DNA from: a virus | Taxonomy: Duplodnaviria; Heunggongvirae; Uroviricota; Caudoviricetes | Reading direction: 5' to 3' (one strand) | Virus record (IMG/VR): IMGVR_UViG_2541047842_000004 | Length of the DNA: 35,960 bases | Shown: in pieces, positions 1 through 33,618 of the stretch | How positions within the stretch are numbered: position 1 is the first letter of the stretch | How the letters are laid out: each line of letters starts with the position of its first letter | Notes under the pieces: generated by a model | Seen by the model: the letters and a program-made list of their open reading frames with translations, nothing else | What the model was told of the DNA's origin: nothing | Database searches by the model: none | Position numbers and translations under genes: made by a program

Positions 1-1143
1 CTATGCTGTTTTGATATCTACGATAACCCAGTCTTTACCACGATCATCATTGTATCGGTCGGTCATTTTTCTGGATTTATGGCCTAACAACTTTTGCGTA
101 TCCAGACCCTGTTCCCGATATAACCGTTCTGACAGAGATCGCTGCTCATGAAATGTGGGCGCAGTTCCTTGCTCCCATTTTATGCCACATTTTTCCCTGG
201 CCTTTTTAAAAGCCGTTGTCAGAGTATTTGCAGAAACCTGGTCTCCTCTGTTTGCTTGAGAGGTAGTGTGACGGTAATGGACCAGATATTTACTAACAAC
301 AGCATCCCTGCACTGAGATATAACTTCACGAAGGGTAATATTCAGAGCATCGCATTTCAGGTTAAGCGGAATAGCAAGTTTTGAACCGGTTTTTTCCTGA
401 GTAATGTGCAACATGTCGTCCCAGATATCAGAGAATTTCAAATTGCAGATATCACCTAAACGTTGTCCAGTAACAAGAGCAAGTAGCATGCCGCATTTTA
501 AATAGGGCTGCCGTCTGCTTACGCTTTCAAATATTGCCTGCCATTCGGGCAGTGACAATCTTTGGCGGTTTACTCGATTTCGCGGTTGTTTTGTTGCCTG
601 CGCTGGGTTAAATCCTGGCGGAACATGTCCTGCGTGTTGTGCTTCTTTGAAGACGTCGATCAACACCATTCTCACGACTTGCGCCATCCTGTTATGACCT
701 TCAGCCTTTACAGCATCAATTATTTCGGCAATATCAAGTGCGGTAATATCCTTGAGGTGTTGCATTCCACAATGCTCACGGAAAAGACGAATGGGTTTGC
801 CTTTTTGCCGATAGGAGTTGGGTCTTAGTTCATTATGTTGCAGCCTGTCCTCCTGGATAGAAATATATTTATCAAGCCATTCTGTCACCGTAATTTCTGA
901 GCGCCTGCCTTTCATTCTTTCCAGACGCTCATTGACGCTTAATATTTGTCGGGTACGTTGTTCAGCAATAATGGTATTTGCTTCAGTAGCAACTTGTTTT
1001 GCTTCATTCTCATCAGTTCCTAAGCTATGAAAACGACCGGATAGTGGATGTTTGTATTGCCAATATACCTTTCCGGTTCGCTTATCTAATTTGCAATATA
1101 AATTGGGTATAGAGATTTTGTGAGATCGGGGTCTAGCAGCCAT
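1..1143 (-). CDS. int: Phage tyrosine integrase (lambdoid Int family, not lambda Int itself)
   Basis: 380-aa ORF whose stop codon is at positions 1-3; C-terminal catalytic region shows tyrosine-recombinase-like motifs (TFHEQRSLSERLY, LLGHKSRKMTDRY); start overlaps the adjacent excisionase-like ORF. Confidence 0.9.
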   Translation of the reverse strand: MAARPRSHKISIPNLYCKLDKRTGKVYWQYKHPLSGRFHSLGTDENEAKQVATEANTIIAEQRTRQILSVNERLERMKGRRSEITVTEWLDKYISIQEDRLQHNELRPNSYRQKGKPIRLFREHCGMQHLKDITALDIAEIIDAVKAEGHNRMAQVVRMVLIDVFKEAQHAGHVPPGFNPAQATKQPRNRVNRQRLSLPEWQAIFESVSRRQPYLKCGMLLALVTGQRLGDICNLKFSDIWDDMLHITQEKTGSKLAIPLNLKCDALNITLREVISQCRDAVVSKYLVHYRHTTSQANRGDQVSANTLTTAFKKAREKCGIKWEQGTAPTFHEQRSLSERLYREQGLDTQKLLGHKSRKMTDRYNDDRGKDWVIVDIKTA

Positions 1144-1369
1144 CAGCGATTATCCGTTGGAGTTTTGGGTTTGCGTTTATTGGGAGTTGCGGTTCTGCAA
1201 GCGTTCCTACAAAACGGGAATTTCGGTCAATCATCCAGTAGCGACCAACTTTTATAGCGGGTGGGGCCATCATTTTCCCTTGCGCGTATTTTTTCAGAAC
1301 TCGCTCACTTGGTGCTAAGTCCCCAAATTCTTCTTTAGCCCAGTCCTGTAAAGTGATTAGTCGAGACAT
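1133..1369 (-). CDS. xis: Excisionase-like protein
   Basis: 78-aa ORF immediately upstream of int with an 11-nt overlap, the typical xis-int arrangement; N-terminal LxLQDW and KVGRYWM segments resemble small phage excisionases. Family assignment is by recollection. Confidence 0.65.
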   Translation of the reverse strand: MSRLITLQDWAKEEFGDLAPSERVLKKYAQGKMMAPPAIKVGRYWMIDRNSRFVGTLAEPQLPINANPKLQRIIADGC

Positions 1370-1508
1370 TTGTCCTCCTCTTAGCTGCTGAGGGAGTTTG
1401 TGACCGATATATCTGACATGATATTAAGCTCATGGCAGGTACATCTCTTGACTGGTCATAGAGATAAATTTAATGCTGAGAAATGCAGTATTGAATTTAT
1501 CAATTTTT

Positions 1509-1748
1509 CTATTTCCTGCGTATGGCACGTAACTTCTTAATGTGTTCTGCCGTTTCGATCTCTTCTGCTATCCGATCTGCATCAGCTTTATTCACAGGTT
1601 CAAAGTCATGATTAAAGCGGAACATGCTGGCGATACATGTTCTGCCTTTTCGGATGTAGTGAACTTTGTTGTAGGTAGAACGCAGGATTTTGCAGGGAGT
1701 GCCGTGGTGGTCGACGTACCAGGTGTTAGGAAAAATGATTCTGAGCAT
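1509..1748 (-). CDS. Hypothetical protein (early-left accessory region)
   Basis: 79-aa ORF on the same strand as the pL operon; no family recognised. Confidence 0.45.
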   Translation of the reverse strand: MLRIIFPNTWYVDHHGTPCKILRSTYNKVHYIRKGRTCIASMFRFNHDFEPVNKADADRIAEEIETAEHIKKLRAIRRK

Positions 1749-1795
1749 TTTTACACCTCAGTTGGACGATGTTGAAATTTGCTGCTTTGAGGCCA

Positions 1796-2014
1796 TCACA
1801 ATCCCCATTGTTTGTTCTTAAGTTCGATCTCCTCCTGGCAACTTGCACAAGTCCGACAACCCTGAACGACCAGGCGTCTTCGCTCATCTATCGGATCGCC
1901 ACACTCACAACAATGAGTGGCAGATACAGTCTGGTAGTTCAGACGACGCATTTTTATTGCTGTATTGCGCTGTAATTCTTCGATTTCTGATGCTGAATCA
2001 ATGATGTCTGCCAT
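1796..2014 (-). CDS. TraR/DksA-family C4 zinc-finger protein
   Basis: 72-aa ORF with CxxC...CxxC spacing (CCECGDPI ... CRTCASC), characteristic of the phage/plasmid TraR-DksA zinc-finger family. Confidence 0.7.
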   Translation of the reverse strand: MADIIDSASEIEELQRNTAIKMRRLNYQTVSATHCCECGDPIDERRRLVVQGCRTCASCQEEIELKNKQWGL

Positions 2015-2065
2015 CTTCCATTAATCCCTGAATTGTTGGTTAATACGCTTGAGGGTGAATGCGAA

Positions 2066-2091
2066 TAATAAAAAAGGAGCCTGTAGCTCCC
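2066..2091 (-). terminator. Putative rho-independent terminator (minus strand) between early-left genes
   Basis: Minus-strand reading gives hairpin GGAGC-tacag-GCTCC followed by a TTTTTTT run. Confidence 0.35.
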
Positions 2092-2112
2092 TGATGATTT
2101 TGCTTTTCATGT

Positions 2113-2412
2113 TCATCGCTCCTTAAAGACGCCGTTTAACATGCCGATCGCCAGGCTTAAATGAGTCGGTGTGAATCCCATCAGCGTTACCGTTTCGCGG
2201 TGCTTCTTCAGTACGCTACGGCAAATGTCATCGACGTTTTTATCCGGAAACTGCTGTCTGGCTTTTTTGATTTCAGAGTTAGCTTGACGGGCAATGCTGC
2301 GAAGGGCGTTTTTCTGCTGAGGTGTCACTGAACAAGCCCCATGCCGGAAAGCATAAGCACACAGAATATGAAGCCCGCCGCCAGAAAAATGCATTCTGTT
2401 GTTGTCATGCAA
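2113..2412 (-). CDS. Hypothetical protein (non-lambda, occupies the lambda orf61 position)
   Basis: 99-aa ORF whose start overlaps the stop of the upstream orf63-like gene by 8 nt (translational coupling); no family recognised. Confidence 0.5.
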   Translation of the reverse strand: MHDNNRMHFSGGGLHILCAYAFRHGACSVTPQQKNALRSIARQANSEIKKARQQFPDKNVDDICRSVLKKHRETVTLMGFTPTHLSLAIGMLNGVFKER

Positions 2413-2596
2413 GCTCTCTCTCGTTTGCCTCTGCTTTCGCCGCCATCATTTCCAGCTTTTGTGAAAGGGATGCGGCTAACGTATGAAATTCTTCGTCTGT
2501 TTCTGCTGGTATTGGCACAAACCTGACTCCAATTTGAGCAAGGCTATGTGCCATCTCAATGCTCGTTCTTAACTCAACAGGAGATGCTTTGTGCAT
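2405..2596 (-). CDS. Lambda orf63-like small protein
   Basis: 63-aa ORF at the position collinear with lambda orf63 relative to exo; sequence matches my recollection of lambda orf63. Confidence 0.6.
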   Translation of the reverse strand: MHKASPVELRTSIEMAHSLAQIGVRFVPIPAETDEEFHTLAASLSQKLEMMAAKAEANERELA

Positions 2597-2751
2597 ACAG
2601 CCCCTCGTTTATTATTTATCTCCTCAGCCAGCCGCTGGGCTTTCAGTGGATTTTGGATAACAGAAAGGCCGGGAAATACCCAGCCTCGCTTTGTAACGGA
2701 GTAGACGAAAGTGATCGCGCCTACCCGGATATTATCGTGAGGATGCGTCAT
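2569..2751 (-). CDS. Lambda orf60a-like small protein
   Basis: ORF immediately upstream of exo, collinear with lambda orf60a; start taken at the internal Met (MTHPHD...). Confidence 0.55.
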
Positions 2752-3428
2752 CGCCATTGCTCCCCAAATACAAAACCAATTTCAGCCAGTGCCTCGTCCA
2801 TTTTTTCGATGAACTCCGGCACCATCTCGTCAAAACTCGCCATGTACTTTTCATCCCGCTCAACCACGACATAATGCAGTCCTTCACGCTTCATACGCGG
2901 GTCATAGTTGGCAAAGTACCAGGCATCTTTTCGTGTCACCCACATGCTGTACTGCACCTGGGCCATGTAAGCCGACTTTATGGCCTCGAAACCACCGAGC
3001 CGGAACTTCATGAAATCCCGGGAGGTAAACGGGCATTTCAGCTCAAGGCCATTGCCGTCACTGCATAAACCATCGGGAGAGCAGGCGGTGCGCATACTTT
3101 CGTCGCGATAGATGATCGGGGATTCAGTAACATTCACGCCGGAAGTGAATTCAAACAGAGTTCTGGCGTCGTTCTCGTACTGTTTTCCCCAGGCCAGCGC
3201 CTTAGCATTAACTTCCGGAGCCACACCGGTGCAAACCTCAGCCAGCAGGGTGTGGAAGTAGGACATTTTCATGTCAGGCCACTTCTTTCCTGAGCGGGGC
3301 TTTGCTATCACGTTGTGAACTTGTGAAGCGGTGATGACGCCGAGCCGTAATTTGTGCCACGCATCATCTCCCTGCTCGATAGCTCTCACGTCGATCCCGG
3401 TACGCTGCAGGATAATGTCCGGTGTCAT
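2748..3428 (-). CDS. exo: Lambda exonuclease (Red alpha)
   Basis: 226-aa product [30 protein letters not shown]... is near-identical to lambda Exo as I recall it; 4-nt overlap with bet. Confidence 0.97.
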
Positions 3429-4210
3429 GCTGCCACCTTCTGTTCAGTGGCTTTTTGTTTCAGGAATCCAAGAGCTTTCACTGCTTCGTCCTGTGTCAGT
3501 TCTGACGATGCACGAATGTCGCGGCGAAATATCTGGGAACAGAGCGGCAATAAGTCGTCATCCCATGTTTTATCCAGGGCGATCAGCAGAGTGTTAATCT
3601 CCTGCATGGTTTCATCGTTAACCGGAGTGATGTCGCGTTCCGGCTGACGTTCTGCAGTGTATGCGGTATTTTCGACAATGCGCTCGGCTTCATCCTTGTC
3701 ATAGATACCAGCAAATCCGAAGGCGAGACGGGCACACTGAATCATGGCTTTATGCCGTAACATCCGTTTGGGATGCGACTGCCACGGCCCCGTGATTTCT
3801 CTGCCTTCGCGAGTTTTGAATGGTTCGCGGCGGCATTCATCCATCCATTCGGTAACGCAGATCGGATGATTACGGTCCTTGCGGTAAATCCGGCATGTAC
3901 AGGATTCATTGTCCTGCTCAAAGTCCATGCCATCAAACTGCTGGTTTTCATTGATGATGCGGGACCAGCCATCAACGCCCACCACCGGAACGATGCCGTT
4001 CTGCTTATCAGGGAAGGCGTAAATTTCTTTCGTCCACGGATTAAGGCCGTACTGGTTGGCGACGATCAACAATGCGATGAACTGCGCATCGCTGGCATCA
4101 CCTTTAAATGCCGTCTGGCGAAGAGTGGTGATCAGTTCCTGTGGGTCGACAGAATCCATGCCGACACGTTCAGCCAGCTTCCCTGCCAGCGTTGCGAGTG
4201 CTGTACTCAT
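3425..4210 (-). CDS. bet: Single-strand annealing protein Bet (Red beta)
   Basis: 261-aa product [37 protein letters not shown]... matches lambda Bet. Confidence 0.97.
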
Positions 4211-4215
4211 CCGTT

Positions 4216-4632
4216 TTATACCTCTGAATCAATATCAACCTGGTGGTGAGCAATGGTTTCAACCATGTACCGGATGTGTTCTGCCATGCGCTCCTGAAAC
4301 TCAACATCGTCATCAAACGCACGGGTAATGGCTTTTTTGCTGGCCCCGTGGCGTTGCAAATGATCGATGCATAGCGATTCAAACAGGTGCTGGGGCAGGC
4401 CTTTTTCCATGTCGTCTGCCAGTTCTGCCTCTTTCTCTTCACGGGCGATCTGCTGGTAGTGACGCGCCCAGCTCTGAGCCTCAAGACGATCCTGAATGTA
4501 ATAAGCGTTCATGGCTGAACTCCTGAAATAGCTGTGAAAATATCGCCCGCGAAATGCCGGGCTGATTAGGAAAACAGGAAAGGGGGTTAGTGAATGCTTT
4601 TGCTTGATCTCAGTTTCAGTATTAATATCCAT
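4216..4632 (-). CDS. gam: Gam, RecBCD inhibitor
   Basis: 138-aa product [61 protein letters not shown]... matches lambda GamL. Confidence 0.95.
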
Positions 4633-4730
4633 TTTTTATAAGCGTCGACGGCCTCACGAAACATCTTTTCATCGCCAATAAAAGTGGCGATAGTGAATTT
4701 AGTCTGGATAGCCATAAGTGTTTGATCCAT
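4587..4730 (-). CDS. kil: Kil (FtsZ-inhibiting host-killing protein)
   Basis: C-terminal 47 aa of the 89-aa track ORF ([47 protein letters not shown]) matches lambda Kil; overlaps the gam start and the cIII end as in lambda. Confidence 0.85.
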
Positions 4731-4863
4731 TTTTTGGGACTCCTGGCTGATTAAGTATGTCGATAAGGCGTTTCCATCCGTCACGTAATTTACGGGTGAT
4801 TCGTTCAAGTAAAGATTCGGAAGGGCAGCCAGCAACAGGCCACCCTGCAATGGCATATTGCAT
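4699..4863 (-). CDS. cIII: CIII (FtsH protease inhibitor, stabilises CII)
   Basis: Hand translation of the minus strand from ATG at 4863 gives [54 protein letters not shown] (54 aa), which is lambda cIII; below the 60-aa cutoff of the ORF track. Confidence 0.85.
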   Translation of the reverse strand: MQYAIAGWPVAGCPSESLLERITRKLRDGWKRLIDILNQPGVPKNGSNTYGYPD

Positions 4864-4935
4864 GGTGTGCTCCTTATTTATACATAACGAAAAACGCCTC
4901 GAGTGAAGCGTTATTGGTATGCGGTAACGCCGCGC

Positions 4936-5304
4936 TCAGGCGGCTTTGATAGTCATATCATCTGAATCAAATATTCCTGATGTATCGATATCGGTAATTC
5001 TTATTCCTTCGCTACCATCCATTGGAGGCCATCCTTCCTGACCATTTCCATCATTCCAGTCGAACTCACACACAACACCATATGCATTTAAGTCGCTTGA
5101 AATTGCTATAAGCAGAGCATGTTGCGCCAGCATGATTAATACAGCATTTAATACAGAGCCGTGTTTATTGAGTCGGTATTCAGAGTCTGACCAGAAATTA
5201 TTAATCTGGTGAAGTTTTTCCTCTGTCATTACGTCATGGTCGATTTCAATTTCTATTGATGCTTTCCAGTCGTAATCAATGATGTATTTTTTGATGTTTG
5301 ACAT
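4936..5304 (-). CDS. ea10: Ea10 (lambda early protein)
   Basis: 122-aa product MSNIKKYIIDYDWKASIEIEIDHDVMTEEKLHQINNFWSD... matches lambda Ea10; same spacing to cIII as in lambda. Confidence 0.8.
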   Translation of the reverse strand: MSNIKKYIIDYDWKASIEIEIDHDVMTEEKLHQINNFWSDSEYRLNKHGSVLNAVLIMLAQHALLIAISSDLNAYGVVCEFDWNDGNGQEGWPPMDGSEGIRITDIDTSGIFDSDDMTIKAA

Positions 5305-5321
5305 CTATTCATATCCTCACA

Positions 5322-5350
5322 GATAAAAAATCGCCCTCACATTGGAGGGC
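5322..5350 (-). terminator. Putative rho-independent terminator in the leftward operon (tL2-like position)
   Basis: Minus-strand hairpin GCCCTC-caatgt-GAGGGC followed by a TTTTTT run, just upstream of ea10. Confidence 0.4.
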
Positions 5351-5500
5351 AAAGAAGATTTCCAATAATCAGAACAAGTCGGCTCCTGTTTAGTTACGAG
5401 CGACATTGCTCAGTGTATTCACTCGTTGGAATGAATACACAGTGCAGTGTTTATTAGTATGCCTGTCTTTTAACCACATCAGGCTCGGTGGTTCTCGTGT

Positions 5501-5548
5501 ACCCCTACAGCGAGAAATCGGATAAACTCTATTCACCCCTACAGAGAG
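5501..5548. repeat. Two direct copies of ACCCCTACAG(C/A)GAG, 34 bp apart, directly upstream of sieB
   Basis: acccctacagcgag at 5501-5514 and acccctacagagag at 5535-5548, read directly from the sequence. Confidence 0.5.
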
Positions 5549-5564
5549 CAAAAGAGAAACGCCG

Positions 5565-7271
<1,707 letters not shown>

Positions 7272-7275
7272 TTAG

Positions 7276-7345
7276 GTTTGCTGGGAAGAAAGACAGTCTT
7301 ATGGATGAACTTATCGCTCAGGATAAGCATGGCAAAAACAAGTAA
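7276..7345 (+). pseudogene. sieB: Displaced 3' remnant of sieB downstream of IS5
   Basis: Removing the IS and one TTAG copy restores a continuous sieB frame ending ...YIRFAGKKDSLMDELIAQDKHGKNK with stop at 7343-7345. Confidence 0.6.
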
Positions 7346-7361
7346 TTAGCAAATGAATTTA

Positions 7362-7670
7362 TCATCTCGCCGTCAGTTGTTTTGATTTCCGGTAGCCTGC
7401 CGCGTAAATAGCTACGTTTGGCAGGCAAACACTTCCACTGCATTCATCTACTTTCTTGCAGCGAAGGCTTCCGAGTGATATTGCTTTTTCAGAAAGGCTT
7501 AACCGCTTTCTCGGGTCTTCCTGAACAGGTTCCTCACTGTCTGTGCCGAAGATCGAATCGATGATGTTGCAGATGGAATCACGCTCGATGGCCAGCTTTC
7601 TGCGCCGCTCATGACGGCGAGTTTTGGCATTTCCTGCAAATGTTGATTTTCCGTACACGATTACCGTCAT
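7362..7670 (-). CDS. N: Antitermination protein N homologue (P22 gp24-type)
   Basis: 102-aa product from ATG at 7670: MTVIVYGKSTFAGNAKTRRHERRRKLAIERD..., with an arginine-rich N-terminal motif; resembles P22 gene 24 protein as I recall it, not lambda N; sits just downstream of nutL. Confidence 0.8.
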   Translation of the reverse strand: MTVIVYGKSTFAGNAKTRRHERRRKLAIERDSICNIIDSIFGTDSEEPVQEDPRKRLSLSEKAISLGSLRCKKVDECSGSVCLPNVAIYAAGYRKSKQLTAR

Positions 7671-7788
7671 GATGTTTTCCTCATGTGAAATGGCTTTGGT
7701 GGTGATGCGCCAGATGCTGATCTTCTGGTTGCTGTCGTTACTGCTGCAATTCACATCACCCCAAACCCATCTCGTTTGGTATCTGTTC

Positions 7789-7823
7789 GCGCTTTGTCAG
7801 CGCATCATCGAAGTTAAAGAGCC
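7789..7823 (-). promoter_or_regulatory. nutL (boxA-like plus boxB hairpin)
   Basis: Minus strand reads ggctctttaa cttcgatgat GCGCTGACAAAGCGC: a boxA-like element followed by a GCGC/tgacaaa/GCGC hairpin, the P22-type boxB as I recall it. Confidence 0.6.
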
Positions 7824-7870
7824 TGCCAATCTGTTCCGTTTGGCTGCCAGCGTCCTGCTGATGGCGATTA

Positions 7871-7931
7871 TAATGAACCAATAGTTCGATATTATCAAGA
7901 ACTATAAGTACGAATTGTTTGTGGTTCATTA
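7871..7931. promoter_or_regulatory. Nested inverted repeats in the presumed pL/OL region
   Basis: taatgaacca (7871-7880) pairs perfectly with tggttcatta (7922-7931); inside, atagttc (7881-7887) pairs with gaactat (7899-7905); an AGTACGA heptamer at 7907-7913 is shared with the OR region. Confidence 0.3.
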
Positions 7932-8080
7932 ACTTAATGAGATATGTTTTTGATATGTAAAGGAATTTATTTTTGTAAAGATTGAAGATTGGTCAGTAGG
8001 AGAGAAAGAATTGTTTGCTGGCGTGTTAGTTCGTGGGTTAGCACATGTGCGGATGTTAAATAAGGTAGACGATCGTGAGG

Positions 8081-8106
8081 AAAAGAAAAACCGGCGCTGA
8101 GGCCGG
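8081..8106 (-). terminator. Putative rho-independent terminator ending the cI-orf299 transcription unit
   Basis: Minus strand: hairpin CCGGC-ctcagc-GCCGG followed by TTTTTCTTTT, 7 nt downstream of the orf299 stop. Confidence 0.45.
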
Positions 8107-8112
8107 GTATAA

Positions 8113-9012
8113 TTATTTGATTATTTCTTTTATAAAGACTTCTTTCGGTTGGTATTTTTTATCTGATGATTTGAGCTGGTACGTTATTGTTATATCAGCA
8201 CGTACAGAAAATTTACCTGCAAAATCTGATGGGTTTACGTTGGGGCCAAGAACCATATTTACTCTTCGATCTATTAATCCAGGGATAACAGCAGCCCAAC
8301 CTTTCTCTGGATTGTCGAGGTCTAATGCACGGATTTCAACATCAACATCAAAATGATCCTGAGTATATGACTCTGGTGTGAAGACAACTTCAGTTGGGGC
8401 TTTTTTAATGGTTTCAGCGGGAATGGTCACTGTACCACCCCCTGTACCTATGACCATCGTAGATCCTTCGTCTGCCCTAGCTGGGGCAAGCGTCTTAATG
8501 GAACTTTTGGCAAGAGTCTTCTTATTGGTTACCGTGCTTTCTATGATTGCTTGAAGACGGTCAGGTGAAATATTAGCCTCACCGGCACCAATATTGATGA
8601 TTGTATTGTTATTTGCTTCAAAGTGGGAGGTGTTGCTTGGAGCCATAGCCTTAGTTGCTAGAACTAAGCCATATCCAACCAGACCAATAACAACAGCACC
8701 AACGAGAGCGTTTCTCATTTTCCCATTTCCGATCTTTGCATGAGCGCCAGCAAGAAACTTGTCCATTTCTTCTTGGCTACCAAAGAGGAGTTTAATAACA
8801 ATATCTTCATAAAGGCTTCCTGCTTCTAATCGCGCAACATGCACCGATATATCAAGGATATTAGCCCCTGTCAGTTCCTGCAAAACACCTTCTGATTGTT
8901 TTGCGATGGCCTCCCACCCTTGAAGGGAGGTAATCACATCTTTGATGCTTACAGGTTCTTTAGTTGAATAATATATGTTTTCGGTAAAGGTTAAAGATAA
9001 TTCTTGGGACAT
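8113..9012 (-). CDS. Uncharacterised 299-aa predicted single-pass membrane protein in the rexAB slot downstream of cI (candidate exclusion/defence gene)
   Basis: Long ORF with GAGG Shine-Dalgarno about 6 nt upstream of ATG 9012; one strongly hydrophobic segment near residues 100-124 (ALVGAVVIGLVGYGLVLATKAMA); coding region visibly AT-rich compared with flanking cI and structural genes; followed by a terminator; no match to any protein I can recall. Confidence 0.75.
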   Translation of the reverse strand: MSQELSLTFTENIYYSTKEPVSIKDVITSLQGWEAIAKQSEGVLQELTGANILDISVHVARLEAGSLYEDIVIKLLFGSQEEMDKFLAGAHAKIGNGKMRNALVGAVVIGLVGYGLVLATKAMAPSNTSHFEANNNTIINIGAGEANISPDRLQAIIESTVTNKKTLAKSSIKTLAPARADEGSTMVIGTGGGTVTIPAETIKKAPTEVVFTPESYTQDHFDVDVEIRALDLDNPEKGWAAVIPGLIDRRVNMVLGPNVNPSDFAGKFSVRADITITYQLKSSDKKYQPKEVFIKEIIK

Positions 9013-9141: not shown

Positions 9142-9849
9142 TCATGAACTTTTCAGCCATTCCCTGGCCTCGATGTCATCTAGGTGGCGAGATTGCTTCA
9201 GAATACCAGCTACATACTCCACCTTTGCTACTTGATGATAAGGCAACGTTATTGGCCTGTGGTCTTGGTTGATGCTTGTAAATTGGTATTCTCCGTCTCT
9301 GTCATAGCCAAGAACCTTGATCATGTTGTGCCCTTCAATGGTTCTGACAAACACCTCATCACCTGGGAATACTTTGGTGTTAGGCTCAATGAGTACATAT
9401 TCTCCTGATTTTATTCTGGGCCACATGCTGTCTCCTTTTACACGAAGACCAAAGGCATCTGGATCATCGCTATAAATCTTGAGCCACCCATCGCGCTCTT
9501 CGGTCATCTCGATGGCACCATCAACACCAAGAATTGCCTCACCAACCACGCGCACTAACCCTTTTTTTAATTTGCCAACAATTGAAAAAGTATCTTCATC
9601 ATTCGCTCCATTTAACGAAGTGCCGTGCTGAAGCCAAACAACATCAACGTTTAGAAATTTCGCAAGCGCATTCATTTTTTCCTGGCGTGGTAAAGACTCA
9701 GCATTAAACCATTTGCTAACGCCTTTGGACGAAAGAGAAAGGGCACGGGCTATGGCCATTCCCCTACCATGTTCATCAAGACCAGCTTCTTTACAGGCTT
9801 GCGCTAGCCGCTGGGCGAATTCTTTGCGCACTTTTTCATTCTGAACCAT
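9142..9849 (-). CDS. cI: CI-type prophage repressor (N-terminal HTH plus C-terminal S24 LexA-like autopeptidase domain)
   Basis: 235-aa protein; C-terminal domain contains the GDSM serine motif and a downstream lysine (MIKVL) typical of LexA/CI autocleavage domains; divergently oriented to cro; sequence differs from lambda CI. Confidence 0.9.
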   Translation of the reverse strand: MVQNEKVRKEFAQRLAQACKEAGLDEHGRGMAIARALSLSSKGVSKWFNAESLPRQEKMNALAKFLNVDVVWLQHGTSLNGANDEDTFSIVGKLKKGLVRVVGEAILGVDGAIEMTEERDGWLKIYSDDPDAFGLRVKGDSMWPRIKSGEYVLIEPNTKVFPGDEVFVRTIEGHNMIKVLGYDRDGEYQFTSINQDHRPITLPYHQVAKVEYVAGILKQSRHLDDIEAREWLKSS

Positions 9850-30207: not shown

Positions 30208-30630
30208 ATGTTCCTGAAAACCGAATCATTTGAACATAACGGTGTGACCGTCACGCTTTCTGAACTGTCAGCCCTGCAGCGTATTGAGCATCTCGCCCTG
30301 ATGAAACGGCAGGCAGAACAGGCGGAGTCAGACAGCAACCGGAAGTTTACTGTGGAAGACGCCATCAGAACCGGCGCGTTTCTGGTGGCGATGTCCCTGT
30401 GGCATAACCATCCGAAGAAGACAAAGCTGCCTTCCATGAATGAAGCCGTTAAACAGATTGAGCAGGAAGTGCTTACCACCTGGCCCACAGAGGCAATTTC
30501 TCATGCTGAAAACGTGGTGTACCGGCTGTCCGGTATGTATGAGTTTGTGGTGAATGATGCCCCTGAACAGGCAGAGGACGCCGGGTCTGCAGAGCCTGTT
30601 TCTGCGGGAAAGTGTTCGACGGTGAGCTGA
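30208..30630 (+). CDS. G: Tail assembly chaperone G
   Basis: 140-aa product MFLKTESFEHNGVTVTLSELSALQRIEHLALMKRQAEQAESDSNRKFTVEDAI... matches lambda gpG. Confidence 0.95.
   Translation: MFLKTESFEHNGVTVTLSELSALQRIEHLALMKRQAEQAESDSNRKFTVEDAIRTGAFLVAMSLWHNHPKKTKLPSMNEAVKQIEQEVLTTWPTEAISHAENVVYRLSGMYEFVVNDAPEQAEDAGSAEPVSAGKCSTVS
30606..30612 (+). promoter_or_regulatory. Programmed -1 ribosomal frameshift slippery heptamer G GGA AAG (G to G-T fusion)
   Basis: gggaaag sits in the X XXY YYZ register of the G frame, 6 codons before the G stop; the T frame is the -1 frame and stays open to 31046. Confidence 0.8.
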
Positions 30631-31046
30631 GTTTTGCCCTGAAACTGGCGCGTGAGATGGGGCGACCTGACTGGCGCGCCATGCTTGCCGGGATGTCATC
30701 CACAGAGTATGCCGACTGGCACCGCTTTTACAGTACCCATTATTTTCATGATGTTCTGCTGGATATGCACTTTTCCGGGCTGACGTACACCGTGCTCAGC
30801 CTGTTTTTCAGCGATCCGGATATGCATCCGCTGGATTTCAGTCTGCTGAACCGGCGTGAGGCTGACGAAGAGCCTGAAGATGATGTGCTGATGCAGAAAG
30901 CGGCAGGGCTTGCCGGAGGCGTCCGCTTTGCCCCGGACGGAAATGAAGTTATCCCCGCTTCCCCGGATATGGCGGGCATGACGGAGGATGACGTAATGCT
31001 GATGACAGTATCAGAAGGGATCGCAGGAGGAGTCCGGTATGGCTGA
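30612..31046 (+). CDS. T: T portion of the tail assembly chaperone G-T frameshift fusion
   Basis: Open -1 frame following the slippery site (…FDGELSFALKLAREMGRPDWRAMLAGMSSTEYADWHRFYSTHYFHDVLLDM…), matching lambda gpT; no independent initiation expected. Confidence 0.8.
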   Translation: MFDGELSFALKLAREMGRPDWRAMLAGMSSTEYADWHRFYSTHYFHDVLLDMHFSGLTYTVLSLFFSDPDMHPLDFSLLNRREADEEPEDDVLMQKAAGLAGGVRFAPDGNEVIPASPDMAGMTEDDVMLMTVSEGIAGGVRYG

Positions 31047-33618
31047 ACCGGTAGGCGATCTGGTCGTTGATTTAAGTCTGGATGCGGCCAGATTTGACGA
31101 GCAGATGGCCAGAGTCAGGCGTCATTTTTCCGGTACGGAAAGTGATGCGAAAAAAACAGCGGCAGTCGTTGAACAGTCGCTGAGCCGACAGGCGCTGGCT
31201 GCACAGAAAGCGGGGATTTCCGTCGGGCAGTATAAAGCTGCCATGCGTATGCTGCCTGCGCAGTTCACTGACGTGGCCACGCAGCTTGCAGGCGGGCAAA
31301 GTCCGTGGCTGATCCTGCTGCAACAGGGTGGTCAGGTGAAGGACTCCTTCGGCGGGATGATCCCCATGTTCAGGGGGCTTGCCGGTGCGATCACCCTGCC
31401 GATGGTCGGGGCCACCTCGCTGGCGGTGGCGACCGGTGCGCTGGCGTATGCCTGGTATCAGGGCAACTCAACCCTGTCCGATTTCAATAAAACGCTGGTC
31501 CTTTCCGGTAATCAGGCGGGACTGACGGCAGATCGTATGCTGGCCCTGTCCAGATCCGGGCAGGCGGCAGGGCTGACGTTTAACCAGACCAGCGAGTCAC
31601 TGACGGCGCTGGTGAATGCCGGTGTGCGTGGTGGTGAGCAGTTTGAGGCAATCAGCCAGAGTGTGGCGCGTTTCTCCTCTGCATCCGGCGTGGAGGTGGA
31701 CAAGGTCGCTGAAGCCTTCGGGAAGCTGACCACTGACCCGACGTCTGGGTTGACGGCGATGGCGCGCCAGTTCCATAACGTGACGGCGGAACAGATTGCG
31801 TATGTTGCTCAGTTGCAGCGTTCCGGCGATGGGGCCGGGGCATTGCAGGCGGCGAACGAGGCCGCAACGAAAGGGTTTGATGACCAGACCCGTAAACTGA
31901 AAGATAACATGGGTACGCTGGAGACCTGGGCAGACAAGACTGCACAGGCATTCAAATCCATGTGGGATGCGGTGCTGGATATTGGTCGCCCGGACTCCTC
32001 TGCAGATATGCTCGCCAAAGCTGAAAAGGCTTTTGATGAAGCGGATAAAAAATGGCAGTGGTATCAGAGCCGAAGCCACCGGCGCGGTAAAACGTCAGCA
32101 TTTCTTGCCAATCTCCGGGGGGCATGGGAGAAGAGAGAGAATGCGCGACTTGGGCTTTCAGCCGCCACGTTGCAGGCAGATCTTGAAAAGGCCAGTGAGA
32201 TGGCAGCAAAAGATCGGGCCGAGTCTGAGGCATCACGGCTGAAATATACCGAAGAGGCGCAGAAGGCTTACGAACGCCTGCAGACACCGCTGGAGAAATA
32301 TACCGCCCGCCAGGAGGAACTGAATAAGGCACTGAAAGACGGAAAAATCCTGCAGGCAGATTACAACACGCTGATGGCGGCGGCGAAAAAGGACTATGAA
32401 GCGACGCTGAAAAAGCCGAAGCAGTCCGGCGTGAAAGTGTCTGCGGGCGATCGTCAGGAAGACAGTGCTCATGCTGCCCTGCTGACGCTTCAGGCAGAAC
32501 TCCGGACACTGGAGAAGCATGCCGGAGCGAATGAGAAAATCAGCCAGCAGCGCCGGGATTTGTGGAAGGCGGAAAGTCAGTTCGCGGTACTGGAGGAGGC
32601 GGCGCAACGTCGCCAGCTGTCCGCACAGGAGAAATCCCTGCTGGCGCATAAAGATGAGACGCTGGAGTACAAACGCCAGCTGGCTGCACTTGGCGATAAG
32701 GTCACGTATCAGGAGCACCTGAACGCGCTGGCGCAGCAGGCGGATAAATTCGCACAGCAGCAACGGGCAAAACGGGCAGCCATTGAGGCGAAAAACCGGG
32801 GGCTGACTGACCGGCAGGCAGCGCGGGACGCCACGGAACAGCGCCTGAAGGAACAGTATGGCGATAATCCGCTGGCGCTGAATAGCGTCATGTCAGAGCA
32901 GAAAAAGACCTGGGCGGCTGAAGACCAGCTTCGCGGGAGCTGGATGGCAGGCCTCAGGTCAGGCTGGAGTGAGTGGGAAGAGAGCGCCACGGACAGTATG
33001 TCGCAGGTTAAAAGTGCAGCCACGCAGACCTTTGATGGTATTGCACAGAATATGGCGGCGATGCTGACCGGCAGTGAACAGAACTGGCGCAGCTTCACCC
33101 GTTCCGTGCTGTCCATGATGACAGAAATTCTGCTTAAGCAGGCAATGGTGGGGATTGTCGGGAGTATCGGCAGCGCCATTGGAGGTGCTACCGGTGGCGG
33201 CTCATCAGCGTCAGGTGGTGCAGCCATTCAGGCCGCTGCGGCGAAACTCCATTTTGCGACCGGAGGATTTACGGGAACCGGCGGCAAATATGAGCCAGCA
33301 GGGATTGTTCACCGTGGTGAATTTGTCTTCACGAAGGAGGCAACCAGCCGGATTGGCGTGGGGAATCTTTACCGGCTGATGCGCGGCTATGCCACCGGCG
33401 GTTATGTCGGTACACCGGGCAGCATGGCGGACAGTCGGTCGCAGGCGTCCGGGAAGTTTGAGCAGAATAACCATGTGGTGATTAACAACGACGGCACGAA
33501 CGGTCAGATAGGGCCACAGGCGCTGAAGGCGGTTTATGACGTAGCCCGTAAGGCGGCAATGGATGTTGTGACCGGGCAGATGCGTGATGGTGGTCTGTTC
33601 TCCGGAGGTGGACGATGA
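31039..33618 (+). CDS. H: Tail tape measure protein H
   Basis: 859-aa product MAEPVGDLVVDLSLDAARFDEQMARVRRHFSGTESDAKKTAAVVEQSLSRQALAAQKAG... matches lambda gpH; Ala/Gln-rich coiled-coil and C-terminal Gly-rich region. Confidence 0.97.
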   Translation: MAEPVGDLVVDLSLDAARFDEQMARVRRHFSGTESDAKKTAAVVEQSLSRQALAAQKAGISVGQYKAAMRMLPAQFTDVATQLAGGQSPWLILLQQGGQVKDSFGGMIPMFRGLAGAITLPMVGATSLAVATGALAYAWYQGNSTLSDFNKTLVLSGNQAGLTADRMLALSRSGQAAGLTFNQTSESLTALVNAGVRGGEQFEAISQSVARFSSASGVEVDKVAEAFGKLTTDPTSGLTAMARQFHNVTAEQIAYVAQLQRSGDGAGALQAANEAATKGFDDQTRKLKDNMGTLETWADKTAQAFKSMWDAVLDIGRPDSSADMLAKAEKAFDEADKKWQWYQSRSHRRGKTSAFLANLRGAWEKRENARLGLSAATLQADLEKASEMAAKDRAESEASRLKYTEEAQKAYERLQTPLEKYTARQEELNKALKDGKILQADYNTLMAAAKKDYEATLKKPKQSGVKVSAGDRQEDSAHAALLTLQAELRTLEKHAGANEKISQQRRDLWKAESQFAVLEEAAQRRQLSAQEKSLLAHKDETLEYKRQLAALGDKVTYQEHLNALAQQADKFAQQQRAKRAAIEAKNRGLTDRQAARDATEQRLKEQYGDNPLALNSVMSEQKKTWAAEDQLRGSWMAGLRSGWSEWEESATDSMSQVKSAATQTFDGIAQNMAAMLTGSEQNWRSFTRSVLSMMTEILLKQAMVGIVGSIGSAIGGATGGGSSASGGAAIQAAAAKLHFATGGFTGTGGKYEPAGIVHRGEFVFTKEATSRIGVGNLYRLMRGYATGGYVGTPGSMADSRSQASGKFEQNNHVVINNDGTNGQIGPQALKAVYDVARKAAMDVVTGQMRDGGLFSGGGR

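What the first reader, a model, noticed from the sequence alone, without database searches (positions are those of the whole stretch)
1509..2412. Non-lambda early-left accessory genes between xis and the lambda-like orf63
Seen in sequence: in the segment where lambda carries ea8.5 and ea22, this prophage has a 79-aa unknown protein (1509..1748), a TraR/DksA-type C4 zinc-finger protein (1796..2014), a possible terminator (2066-2091) and a 99-aa unknown protein (2113..2412) translationally coupled to orf63. Established knowledge: the early-left region downstream of the recombination genes is a frequent home for host-takeover and anti-defence genes, and TraR-like proteins can act on RNA polymerase. 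Inference: these are candidates for host-modulation or counter-defence functions.
Basis: partly seen in the sequence, partly recalled or inferred. Interest (0 to 1): 0.4.

Follow-up and report, generated by a model that had tools for sequence, protein, structure and literature searches.

The report
Known lambdoid exo-xis accessory genes
This stretch is the well-studied "exo-xis" accessory region of lambda-like phages: two of the three supposedly non-lambda genes are lambda's own orf73 (a TraR-type RNA polymerase regulator) and an intact orf61, and only the small DUF4222 gene next to xis is truly non-lambda and still of unknown function.

Summary
Window 1835-2757 is 95.7% identical in DNA to phage lambda 30434-31357.

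- **72-aa zinc-finger protein:** this is lambda Orf73 (63/72 identical). Orf73 is an experimentally characterised TraR homologue that binds RNA polymerase, shuts down rRNA and ribosomal-protein promoters, slows host growth and raises burst size.
- **"99-aa unknown":** this is the intact form of lambda orf61, most likely 93 aa from the ATG at 2394 and 87/93 identical to Phi24B Orf61. Reference lambda carries one extra base in the A-run at 2263-2268, which truncates the gene.
- **Hairpin:** it matches the published predicted terminator t2. It lies inside a conserved 29/31-aa ORF that bridges orf61 and orf73.
- **79-aa DUF4222 protein (1509-1748):** only this gene replaces lambda ea22/ea8.5. It is widespread in enterobacterial prophages (phage 21, SfI; about 35% identical to Phi24B vb_24B_1c). 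It models as a small SH3/Tudor-like barrel plus a helix. It is only distantly related (25%) to RgdR, the one studied family member.

I found no defence or counter-defence signal. Verdict: an ordinary, already described module with low interest.

The parts
1509..1748 (-). DUF4222 gene, 79 aa. It is the last gene before xis and the only truly non-lambda element; it replaces lambda ea22, ea8.5 and lambdap35. A GAGGTG Shine-Dalgarno sits 5 nt upstream of the ATG.
   Evidence: - ORF. PF13973 E 1.5e-18; phrog_285 E 2e-35.
- No lambda counterpart in the alignment.
- RefSeq annotates the same ORF as 'DUF4222 domain-containing protein'.
- Homologues lie beside xis/int in phage 21, SfI, Phi24B (vb_24B_1c, 35% identical), JLK-2012, and in Klebsiella and Salmonella phages.
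- AF2 model pLDDT 91.8: five strands plus a helix at 54-78.
1796..2014 (-). orf73 orthologue: a 72-aa TraR/DksA-family C4 zinc-finger protein that regulates transcription by binding RNA polymerase directly.
   Evidence: - PF01258 36.2 bits (cut-off 24.9); phrog_54 E 1e-25.
- 63/72 identical to lambda Orf73.
- Matches TraR in PDB 5W1S at E 2e-5, with the DxxDxA motif, CxxC-17-CxxC and the RR pair aligned.
- Function of lambda Orf73: PMC9239242.
1820..1835 (.). Mosaic junction. To the right of this point the window is lambda-like (95.7% nt identity). To the left, covering the last ~12 codons of orf73 and everything as far as xis, it is not.
   Evidence: DNA alignment with lambda; identity count; the C-terminal residues of Orf73 differ.
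2021..2116 (-). Small ORF of 31 aa, with a conserved 29-aa core starting at the ATG at 2110. Its start overlaps the orf61 stop (ATGA), and its TAA lies 6 nt before the orf73 ATG. It probably corresponds to the 31-aa lambda peptide orf2313 seen by ribosome profiling.
   Evidence: - ORF. Identical peptide encoded in lambda.
- Sequence read directly.
- The 29-aa core is open in 106 of 109 IMG/VR loci analysed, and the junction TAATG[GA]AAGATG is constant in 106 of 109.
- PMC8614690 reports a 31-aa peptide in this block.
- Phage 21 annotates it as a 29-aa CDS.
2065..2092 (-). Terminator-like hairpin: AGGGAGC-TAC-A-GGCTCCTT followed by a T-run. It is identical to the published predicted terminator t2 of lambda and Phi24B, and lies inside the small ORF.
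   Evidence: - Scan result; fold.
- Identical to t2 in PMC4195576 Table 4. In lambda, mRNA levels for genes downstream of t2 were reported to be lower.
- Stem invariant across IMG/VR loci.
- Lambda coordinates 30673-30691.
2113..2394 (-). Intact orf61, 93 aa from the ATG at 2394.
   Evidence: - phrog_303 E 3e-41, matching residues 7-99.
- 87/93 identical to Phi24B vb_24B_7c.
- Start-codon analysis.
- Codon-position bias of variable sites in the C-terminal 71 codons is 8/8/25.
- AF2 model is helical, pLDDT 76.
2263..2268 (.). T6 run (A6 on the coding strand). Reference lambda has T7 here, which shifts the frame and yields the truncated 61-aa lambda Orf61 plus an orphan 60-aa C-terminal ORF.
   Evidence: - Alignment; translations.
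- In IMG/VR, at least 120 loci carry T6 and 13 carry T7.
- Six loci with the full lambda gene order carry the intact T6 allele.
2405..2757 (-). Context: orf63 (DUF1382, 2405..2596) and orf60a (DUF1317, 2569..2757). These are the lambda-type proximal part of the exo-xis block, upstream of exo (2748..3428).
   Evidence: Pfam E 9e-31 and 7e-40; near-identity to the lambda proteins.

Best explanation
The interval is the distal half of the lambdoid 'exo-xis' accessory region. It is transcribed leftward from pL, after N, cIII, kil, gam, bet, exo, orf60a and orf63.

**Gene order in transcription direction**
1. Intact orf61 (93 aa).
2. A conserved 29/31-aa bridging ORF that contains the predicted intrinsic terminator t2.
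3. orf73 (72 aa).
4. A DUF4222 gene (79 aa).
5. xis and int of the phage-21 type (icd-integrating).

**Shown by close homology to tested proteins.** Orf73 is a TraR-type factor. Its N-terminal helix (DxxDxA) reaches into the RNA polymerase secondary channel without binding DNA. It inhibits rRNA and ribosomal-protein promoters independently of ppGpp. This diverts host resources, slows growth and increases burst size.

**Known only at the phenotype level.** Orf61 is a small helical protein. Deleting it shifts the lysis-lysogeny decision and prophage induction in lambda and Phi24B.

**Inferred.**
- Hairpin t2 attenuates transcription into orf73 and DUF4222 when RNA polymerase is not N-modified.
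- Translation of the bridging ORF across the hairpin opposes termination and hands ribosomes to the weakly signalled orf73 start 6 nt downstream.
- The DUF4222 protein is a small beta-barrel-plus-basic-helix adaptor. It modulates host gene expression through protein or nucleic-acid contacts, by analogy with its distant relative RgdR.

The module is a common mosaic cassette, not a new system.
For: - **Lambda identity:** 884/924 nt over window 1835-2757.
- **Protein identities:** 63/72 to lambda Orf73 and 87/93 to Phi24B Orf61.
- **Family matches:**
- **TraR motifs:** conserved in the alignment to PDB 5W1S.
- **Published function of lambda Orf73:** PMC9239242.
- **Published exo-xis literature:** this names orf60a-orf63-orf61-orf73 as a conserved block followed by variable genes, and notes that lambda Orf61 is truncated (PMC8614690). 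It gives orf61 deletion phenotypes (PMC6213356). It predicts t2 with the identical sequence and reports lower downstream mRNA in lambda (PMC4195576).
- **Prevalence:** part of the module is present in 3412 of 5426 complete E. coli genomes, and at least 80% of it in 1539. It occurs in 184 phage records, including phage 21 and Stx phages.
- **Block architecture:** across 133 IMG/VR loci, orf73, the small ORF and the orf61 region (intact in the T6 loci, frameshifted in the T7 loci) are present in nearly all loci with enough flank, usually with orf63. The left flank varies among DUF4222, ea22, ea8.5, lambdap35 and an ASCH gene.
- **Bridging ORF and hairpin:** their geometry is conserved.
Against: - Nothing here measures expression in this particular prophage. 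An IS5-family element at about 6077-7271 lies between N and the downstream early-left genes and could be polar.
- The last ~12 residues of Orf73 differ from lambda. That region forms the helix said to contact the beta Si1 insertion, so activity could differ in degree.
- The role proposed for the bridging ORF is inference only. Variable sites in it show no codon-position bias (7/6/7), so the peptide itself may not matter. The hairpin segment folds only modestly better than shuffled sequence (z -1.56).
Confidence: 0.85

Rival explanations
1. One reading: three novel, non-lambda early-left genes that are candidates for counter-defence or new host-takeover functions.
For: - The early-left region of lambdoid phages does carry anti-defence genes such as gam and ral (established knowledge).
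- The DUF4222 gene is absent from lambda and has no assigned function.
Against: - Two of the three genes and the hairpin are lambda sequence at 95.7% identity. Both genes are already named and studied.
- PADLOC gives no significant hit for any of them.
- No paper read here links them to defence or counter-defence.
Confidence: 0.05
2. The DUF4222 protein is a lysogenic-conversion-type regulator like RgdR. It would be expressed from the prophage, not only during lytic growth, and would tune host virulence, motility or surface genes, rather than serving phage development.
For: - RgdR, the only studied DUF4222 protein, is encoded on a prophage-like PICI. It activates LEE1 and type III secretion, represses motility and binds DNA weakly and non-specifically (PMC3378721, PMC6092414).
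- It shares the Pfam domain with the window protein. Pairwise E is 3e-5.
Against: - Identity is only 25%, and the RGD motif important for RgdR activity aligns to P-N-T here.
- The window gene lies inside the pL operon, with no promoter-like site found upstream on its strand. It should therefore be silent in a repressed lysogen.
- RgdR sits in a different context, directly upstream of the PICI primase.
Confidence: 0.2
3. In this particular genome the genes are silent passengers of a crippled prophage. The IS5 insertion between N and the early-left genes blocks or reduces pL transcription, so the region has no current function.
For: - An IS5-family element with a DDE transposase and 19-nt terminal inverted repeats lies at about 6077-7271.
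- It is absent from free phages that are otherwise 100% identical.
Against: - All ORFs in 1509-2757 are intact and 100% identical to those of plaque-forming phages such as 1H12 and Lambda_2E9.
- nutL lies upstream of the IS, so N-modified polymerase is expected to read through (inference from established lambda biology).
- The insertion looks recent.
Confidence: 0.1

Closest known systems
Phage lambda Orf73 (TraR family; F-plasmid TraR, PDB 5W1S/6N57)
   Same: - 63/72 identical residues.
- Same position, downstream of orf61 and t2.
- DxxDxA motif (D3, D6, A8); CxxC-17-CxxC (C35/C38, C56/C59); the two extra cysteines typical of lambda Orf73 (C36, C53); the R46-R47 pair equivalent to TraR R48-R49 (PMC9239242).
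   Different: - One residue shorter, with a divergent C-terminal tail (QEEIELKNKQWGL against QEDLELISKQRGSK), because the mosaic junction falls inside the 3' end of the gene.
- In lambda the stop overlaps the ea22 start. Here a 47-nt spacer precedes the DUF4222 gene.
Orf61 of Stx phages Phi24B (vb_24B_7c) and 933W, and lambda orf61
   Same: 87/93 identical to Phi24B Orf61 and the same length from the conserved ATG. Same DNA as lambda orf61, at about 96% identity.
   Different: Reference lambda has one extra A in the A6 run and so encodes only the first ~54 homologous residues (61 aa in total). The window allele is intact. RefSeq annotates the window allele as 71 aa from a GTG, which is probably too short.
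RgdR (ECs1581 / C1493), the DUF4222 regulator of E. coli PICIs
   Same: Shares the DUF4222 domain. Both are small and basic and are encoded on mobile elements.
   Different: 25% identity; 79 aa against 99 aa; no RGD motif; sits beside xis at the end of the pL operon rather than upstream of a PICI primase.
vb_24B_1c of Phi24B and the DUF4222 genes of phage 21, SfI, JLK-2012, and Klebsiella and Salmonella lambdoid or P22-like phages
   Same: Same family and the same slot, as the last or second-last gene before xis/int. Often directly downstream of a TraR/DksA gene.
   Different: Identity ranges from 87% (phage 21) to 35% (Phi24B). None has been studied individually, as far as the searched literature shows.
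Predicted terminator t2 and the 31-aa ribosome-profiling peptide (orf2313) of lambda
   Same: Identical hairpin sequence and identical 31-aa peptide.
   Different: None in sequence. The link proposed here between translation of the small ORF, t2 and orf73 initiation was not stated in the papers I read.

Membership tests
TraR/DksA family (TraR-like subgroup) | Pfam zf-dskA_traR domain above the gathering score | tested here: met
   PF01258: 36.2 bits against a cut-off of 24.9, E 5.9e-9.
TraR/DksA family (TraR-like subgroup) | N-terminal DxxDxA motif that contacts the RNA polymerase active-site region | tested here: met
   M-A-D3-I-I-D6-S-A8 aligned to TraR. The motif is defined in PMC9239242.
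TraR/DksA family (TraR-like subgroup) | C4 zinc finger CxxC-17-CxxC, plus an arginine pair equivalent to TraR R48/R49 | tested here: met
   C35-x2-C38, 17 residues, C56-x2-C59; R46-R47 aligned to TraR R48-R49.
TraR/DksA family (TraR-like subgroup) | NCBIfam subfamily model TIGR02419 (C4_traR_proteo) above its curated cut-off | tested here: not met
   52.9 bits against a cut-off of 59.7. It falls just short of the trusted cut-off. Whether lambda Orf73 passes this model was not tested.
TraR/DksA family (TraR-like subgroup) | Binds RNA polymerase and inhibits rRNA promoters without ppGpp | not testable with these tools
   Shown for lambda Orf73, which is 88% identical, in PMC9239242. Inferred here.
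Lambdoid exo-xis block (orf60a-orf63-orf61-orf73) | Gene order and orientation between exo and xis, with sequence similarity to lambda and Phi24B | tested here: met
   - Order is exo, DUF1317, DUF1382, orf61, orf73 on the - strand.
- 95.7% nt identity to lambda.
- Same order in Phi24B.
Orf61 family (phrog_303) | Full-length match to the ~93-101-aa family profile | tested here: met
   phrog_303 E 3e-41, residues 7-99 to profile positions 1-93.
Orf61 family (phrog_303) | Homeodomain-like three-helix DNA-binding fold, as proposed in PMC8614690 | tested here: inconclusive
ZapA (the name NCBI gives some Orf61 homologues) | Pfam ZapA domain above the gathering score | tested here: not met
   PF05164: 13.6 bits against a cut-off of 23.8, E 0.088. 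The name appears on several database entries but is not supported.
DUF4222 (PF13973) | Pfam domain above the gathering score | tested here: met
   66.5 bits against a cut-off of 27, covering profile positions 1-53.
RgdR-type regulators (functional subgroup of DUF4222) | RGD motif at residues 20-22, important for T3SS activation | tested here: not met
   RgdR M19-R-G-D22 aligns to window F6-P-N-T9. The importance of the motif is described in PMC3378721.
RgdR-type regulators (functional subgroup of DUF4222) | PICI context directly upstream of the primase, with a length of ~99 aa | tested here: not met
   C1493 lies at L004 4182-4481, overlapping the primase start. The window gene is 79 aa and lies between orf73 and xis.
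Intrinsic (Rho-independent) terminator | GC-rich stem-loop followed by a U-run on the transcribed strand | tested here: met
   8-pair stem, 3-nt loop, then TTTTATTATT on the - strand; fold.
Intrinsic (Rho-independent) terminator | Measured termination of transcription | not testable with these tools
   Indirect only: lower mRNA for genes downstream of t2 in lambda (PMC4195576).
Known anti-phage defence or counter-defence proteins | Match to a PADLOC model | tested here: not met
   No hit for the DUF4222 protein, Orf61 or the small ORF. The TraR-like protein gave only an insignificant E 0.011.

The most novel reading that the evidence does not exclude
Two readings remain open.

1. The conserved 29/31-aa ORF may act as a translational bridge and anti-attenuator. 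Its start overlaps the orf61 stop, it contains the t2 hairpin, and it ends 6 nt before the orf73 ATG. Ribosomes arriving from orf61 would melt t2 and re-initiate at orf73. Production of the RNA-polymerase regulator Orf73, and of DUF4222 downstream, would then be gated by ongoing translation of the upstream genes.

2. The DUF4222 protein, often found directly after a TraR gene, may be a Tudor/SH3-like partner acting on RNA polymerase or the nucleoid together with Orf73.
Probability: 0.15. Interest if true: 0.45.

Novelty: already known. Interest (0 to 1): 0.15.

Why it matters
It matters mainly as a correction. Anyone scanning prophages should recognise this cassette as the lambda/Stx-phage exo-xis region, not as a new accessory locus.

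The useful residue is modest:
- **Lambda orf61 truncation.** It comes down to one extra base in an A6 run. Most wild relatives, including some with the full lambda gene order, carry the intact 93-aa gene. Experiments on lambda orf61 have therefore probably used a crippled allele.
- **Public annotation.** Entries for this gene are inconsistent: 71 aa, 93 aa, 99-100 aa, or mislabelled 'ZapA'.
- **DUF4222.** This gene beside xis is one of the commonest uncharacterised genes in E. coli prophages and would be a cheap target for a first functional study.
- **Orf73 control.** The fixed arrangement of orf61 stop, small ORF, hairpin and orf73 start suggests a testable control point for Orf73 expression. 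Orf73 is relevant to Stx-phage induction biology.

Tried and rejected
- **PDB sequence search.** Nothing meaningful for the DUF4222 protein or the 99-aa ORF; best E values were 0.97 and 0.18 (DARPins).
- **PADLOC scan.** Nothing.
- **Rfam, window 1-8200 at E up to 1.** Only the cIII thermoregulator, outside the finding.
- **AFDB50 library.** Not available.
- **Fold search of the Orf61 model.** It did not recover the homeodomain proposed in the literature.
- **tL3.** I considered whether the 2074-2092 hairpin is the classical lambda terminator tL3. From memory, tL3 lies closer to exo, and the stronger hairpin at 2665-2687 inside orf60a (t1 of PMC4195576) is the better candidate. I could not confirm this from the papers available.
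- **Published promoter p1.** This predicted promoter overlaps t2, but my consensus scan did not find it on the - strand.
- **Selection on DUF4222.** Codon-position and synonymous/non-synonymous counts among close alleles were uninformative: 21 variable sites with no bias.
- **Variability count.** A first count across orf63 and the orf61 N-terminus was inflated by mosaic alleles. I replaced it with the per-allele ORF analysis.
- **RgdR from EDL933.** Fetching by accession failed. I used the CFT073 orthologue C1493 instead.
Full report
**What is in the sequence**

The window begins with the left end of a lambdoid prophage. All early-left genes are on the minus strand:

| Coordinates | Feature | Size |
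|---|---|---|
| 1..1143 | int | |
| 1133..1369 | xis | |
| 1509..1748 | ORF | 79 aa |
| 1796..2014 | ORF | 72 aa |
| 2021..2116 | ORF | 31 aa |
| 2113..2412 | ORF (TTG start) | 99 codons |
| 2405..2596 | orf63 (DUF1382) | |
| 2569..2757 | orf60a (DUF1317) | |
| 2748..3428 | exo | |

Further to the right come bet, gam, kil and cIII. The int/xis pair is the phage-21 type. In a 100%-identical E. coli chromosome copy the prophage lies next to icd.

The hairpin is real too: on the minus strand, 2092-2074 forms an 8-pair stem with a 3-nt loop, followed by TTTTATTATT. When the 61-nt segment around it is folded, this stem is the dominant element; the whole segment folds at -10.8 kcal/mol, z -1.56 against shuffles.

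**The 'non-lambda' claim fails for most of the interval**

I aligned window 1370-2800 with lambda (NC_001416). From about 1830 rightwards the two are nearly the same DNA. Window 1835-2757 against lambda 30434-31357 gives 884 identical positions of 924, with a single 1-nt gap.

- **The 72-aa protein.** It is 63/72 identical to an ORF at lambda 30392-30613. RefSeq does not annotate that ORF, but the literature calls it orf73.
- **The hairpin and the 31-aa ORF.** Both are present in lambda. The hairpin is identical and the ORF encodes the same peptide.
- **The 99-codon ORF.** It corresponds to lambda orf61 plus the unannotated 60-aa ORF that follows it. Lambda has T7 where the window has T6 (2263-2268; A-run on the coding strand). 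Lambda's frame therefore shifts after '...SEIKK' and ends at 61 aa.
- **The 79-aa gene and the spacer to xis.** Only these have no lambda counterpart. They replace ea22, ea8.5 and lambdap35. The mosaic junction falls within the last dozen codons of orf73.

**How common it is**

- The 1231-bp stretch from 1370 to 2600 is matched at least in part in 3412 of 5426 complete E. coli genomes. At least 80% of it is matched in 1539 genomes.
- It occurs in 184 phage records, including phage 21 and many Stx phages. Plaque-forming phages such as 1H12 and Lambda_2E9 match at 100%.
- Across 133 IMG/VR loci recovered with the A-run pattern, orf73, the small ORF and the orf61 region (intact in T6 loci, frameshifted in T7 loci) are present in nearly all loci with enough flank, usually with orf63. 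The left side varies among DUF4222, ea22, ea8.5, lambdap35 and an ASCH gene.
- This matches the published description of the exo-xis region: a conserved block followed by variable genes (PMC8614690).

**The TraR-like protein is lambda Orf73**

It passes the Pfam zf-dskA_traR threshold. It falls just short of the NCBIfam TIGR02419 cut-off, at 52.9 against 59.7 bits. It aligns to F-plasmid TraR from the RNA polymerase co-crystal structure 5W1S at E 2e-5. Four features are conserved:

- the DxxDxA motif (D3, D6, A8);
- the CxxC-17-CxxC finger (C35/C38, C56/C59);
- the R46-R47 pair;
- the two extra cysteines typical of lambda Orf73.

Gopalkrishnan et al. (PMC9239242) characterised lambda Orf73 experimentally:

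- It binds RNA polymerase and complements a dksA null.
- It inhibits rRNA and r-protein promoters in vitro and in vivo and slows host growth.
- It raises phage yield 3- to 4-fold, an effect lost in the D3A/D6A mutant.

At 88% identity with every key residue kept, the same mechanism is by far the most likely here. The one caveat is the divergent C-terminal tail.

**The '99-aa unknown' is intact orf61**

- It matches phrog_303 over residues 7-99.
- From its ATG it is 87/93 identical to Phi24B vb_24B_7c, the Orf61 of that phage.
- Of 117 IMG/VR loci in which this block could be extracted, 59 have a stop codon directly upstream of that ATG. The frame from MHFSG... onward stays open in all but a rare mosaic allele.
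- The real product is therefore most likely 93 aa, starting at 2394, 10 nt after the orf63 stop.
- Variable sites in the C-terminal 71 codons are biased to third positions (8/8/25), as expected for a coding region under constraint.
- The intact T6 allele was found in at least 120 IMG/VR loci and the lambda-type T7 in 13. Six loci with the complete lambda gene order carry the intact allele.
- That lambda Orf61 'appears truncated' is already in print (PMC8614690). Deletion phenotypes are also published, covering the lysis-lysogeny decision, induction and Phi24B adsorption (PMC6213356).
- The 'ZapA' label on some database entries rests on a sub-threshold Pfam hit.

**The hairpin and the small ORF**

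The hairpin is identical to 't2', predicted for lambda and Phi24B by Bloch et al. They also reported lower mRNA for lambda genes downstream of it (PMC4195576).

The hairpin lies inside the 31-aa ORF. Reading the minus strand:

- The orf61 stop overlaps the first ATG of the small ORF (cgATGA).
- An AAGGAG lies 9 nt upstream of its second ATG.
- Its TAA lies 6 nt before the orf73 ATG, which has only a weak Shine-Dalgarno of its own.

Across 109 IMG/VR loci, the 29-aa core is open in 106 and the TAA-N6-ATG junction is constant in 106. The stem is invariant. The first ATG is replaced by GTG in 51 of the 109 loci.

A 31-aa peptide in this block was detected by ribosome profiling in lambda (reported in PMC8614690). 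I infer, without a test, that translation of this ORF both counteracts t2 and feeds ribosomes to orf73. The lack of codon-position bias in its few variable sites suggests that the act of translation matters rather than the peptide.

**The DUF4222 protein**

This is the only part that is both non-lambda and uncharacterised.

- **Family.** It is a clear member of PF13973 and phrog_285.
- **Breadth.** The subfamily is narrow. A profile search of 1.84 billion representative proteins found 48. Named close relatives come from Escherichia, Citrobacter, Enterobacter and Salmonella. Phage hits add Shigella and Klebsiella.
- **Position.** Homologues occupy the same slot beside xis/int in phage 21, SfI, JLK-2012, Phi24B (vb_24B_1c, 35% identity), a Klebsiella phage and a P22-like Salmonella phage. 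They are often directly downstream of a TraR/DksA gene.
- **Studied relative.** The single studied family member is RgdR, encoded on E. coli PICIs. It activates LEE1 and type III secretion, represses motility and binds DNA weakly (PMC3378721, PMC6092414, PMC10877973).
- **Distance from RgdR.** Against the CFT073 orthologue the window protein is 25% identical, E 3e-5. The RGD motif aligns to P-N-T and the genomic context differs. I therefore file it under DUF4222 but not as an RgdR-type regulator.
- **Working hypothesis.** It may be a small adaptor that modulates host gene expression, held with low confidence.

No evidence points to defence or counter-defence.

**Expression caveat specific to this copy**

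An IS5-family element lies at about 6077-7271. It has a DDE transposase and 19-nt inverted ends, and is absent from the identical free phages. It sits at the 3' end of sieB, between N and the rest of the pL operon. Because nutL is upstream of it, N-modified polymerase may read through, but polarity cannot be excluded.

**Verdict**

The module is the known exo-xis region of lambdoid phages, and its novelty is low.

Four items are worth keeping:
- the single-base explanation of lambda's truncated orf61;
- the probable 93-aa start;
- the conserved geometry of orf61, small ORF, t2 and orf73;
- the very common, unstudied DUF4222 gene beside xis.

Noticed in passing
window 6077-7271 (transposase ORF 6109..7125 +; inverted repeats 6074-6092 / 7256-7274): An IS5-family insertion sequence sits at the 3' end of sieB, between N and the early-left genes. 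Free phages that are otherwise 100% identical (1H12, Lambda_2E9) lack it. It lies in the path of the pL transcript and could be polar on the genes of this finding.
   Followed up: partly
window 2263-2268 (lambda 30,8xx region; L001 about 3167-3173): Reference lambda has T7 where the window and at least 120 IMG/VR loci have T6. This single-base slippage explains the truncated 61-aa lambda Orf61. Six loci with the full lambda gene order (xis, lambdap35, ea8.5, ea22, orf73) carry the intact allele.
   Followed up: yes
window 2021-2116 (-) with hairpin 2065-2092: A conserved 29/31-aa ORF whose start overlaps the orf61 stop, which contains the predicted terminator t2 and which ends 6 nt before the orf73 ATG. 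The geometry is constant in 106 of 109 related loci. This suggests translational bridging or anti-attenuation controlling orf73.
   Followed up: partly
window 2113-2412 (-) and public annotations: Public annotation of this gene is inconsistent: 71 aa from a GTG (PGAP), 93 aa, 99-100 aa, many frameshifted fragments, and the unsupported name 'cell division protein ZapA' (PF05164 at only 13.6 bits against a cut-off of 23.8).
   Followed up: yes
window 1463-1501 (+), intergenic between the DUF4222 stop and xis: An AT-rich imperfect inverted repeat (16 pairs, 7-nt loop) lies immediately downstream of the DUF4222 stop codon, within the 139-nt spacer before xis. No T-run follows it on the transcribed strand, and its role is unknown.
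   Followed up: no
window 2665-2687 (-), inside orf60a: A stronger terminator-like hairpin (9 pairs, 6 of them GC), identical to predicted t1 of PMC4195576. From memory this is probably the classical lambda tL3, but I could not confirm that from the papers available.
   Followed up: partly
window 8113-9012 (-): A 299-aa ORF between N and the cI-like repressor (9142..9849), in the position where lambda carries rexA/rexB. It has no Pfam or PADLOC match.
   Followed up: no
L139 2283-2740; L141 2235-2779; L140 2056-2728: The adjacent gene pair TraR/DksA then DUF4222, just before int, recurs in Klebsiella phage ST101-KPC2phi6.1 (where the TraR end abuts the DUF4222 start), in Shigella phage SfI and in Salmonella phage S9-5. 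In S9-5 the DUF4222 ORF is unannotated and a CDS is called on the opposite strand.
   Followed up: partly
window 4818-4876 (-): Rfam Lambda_thermo, the cIII thermoregulator element, at 88.5 bits. As expected for a lambda-type cIII leader.
   Followed up: no
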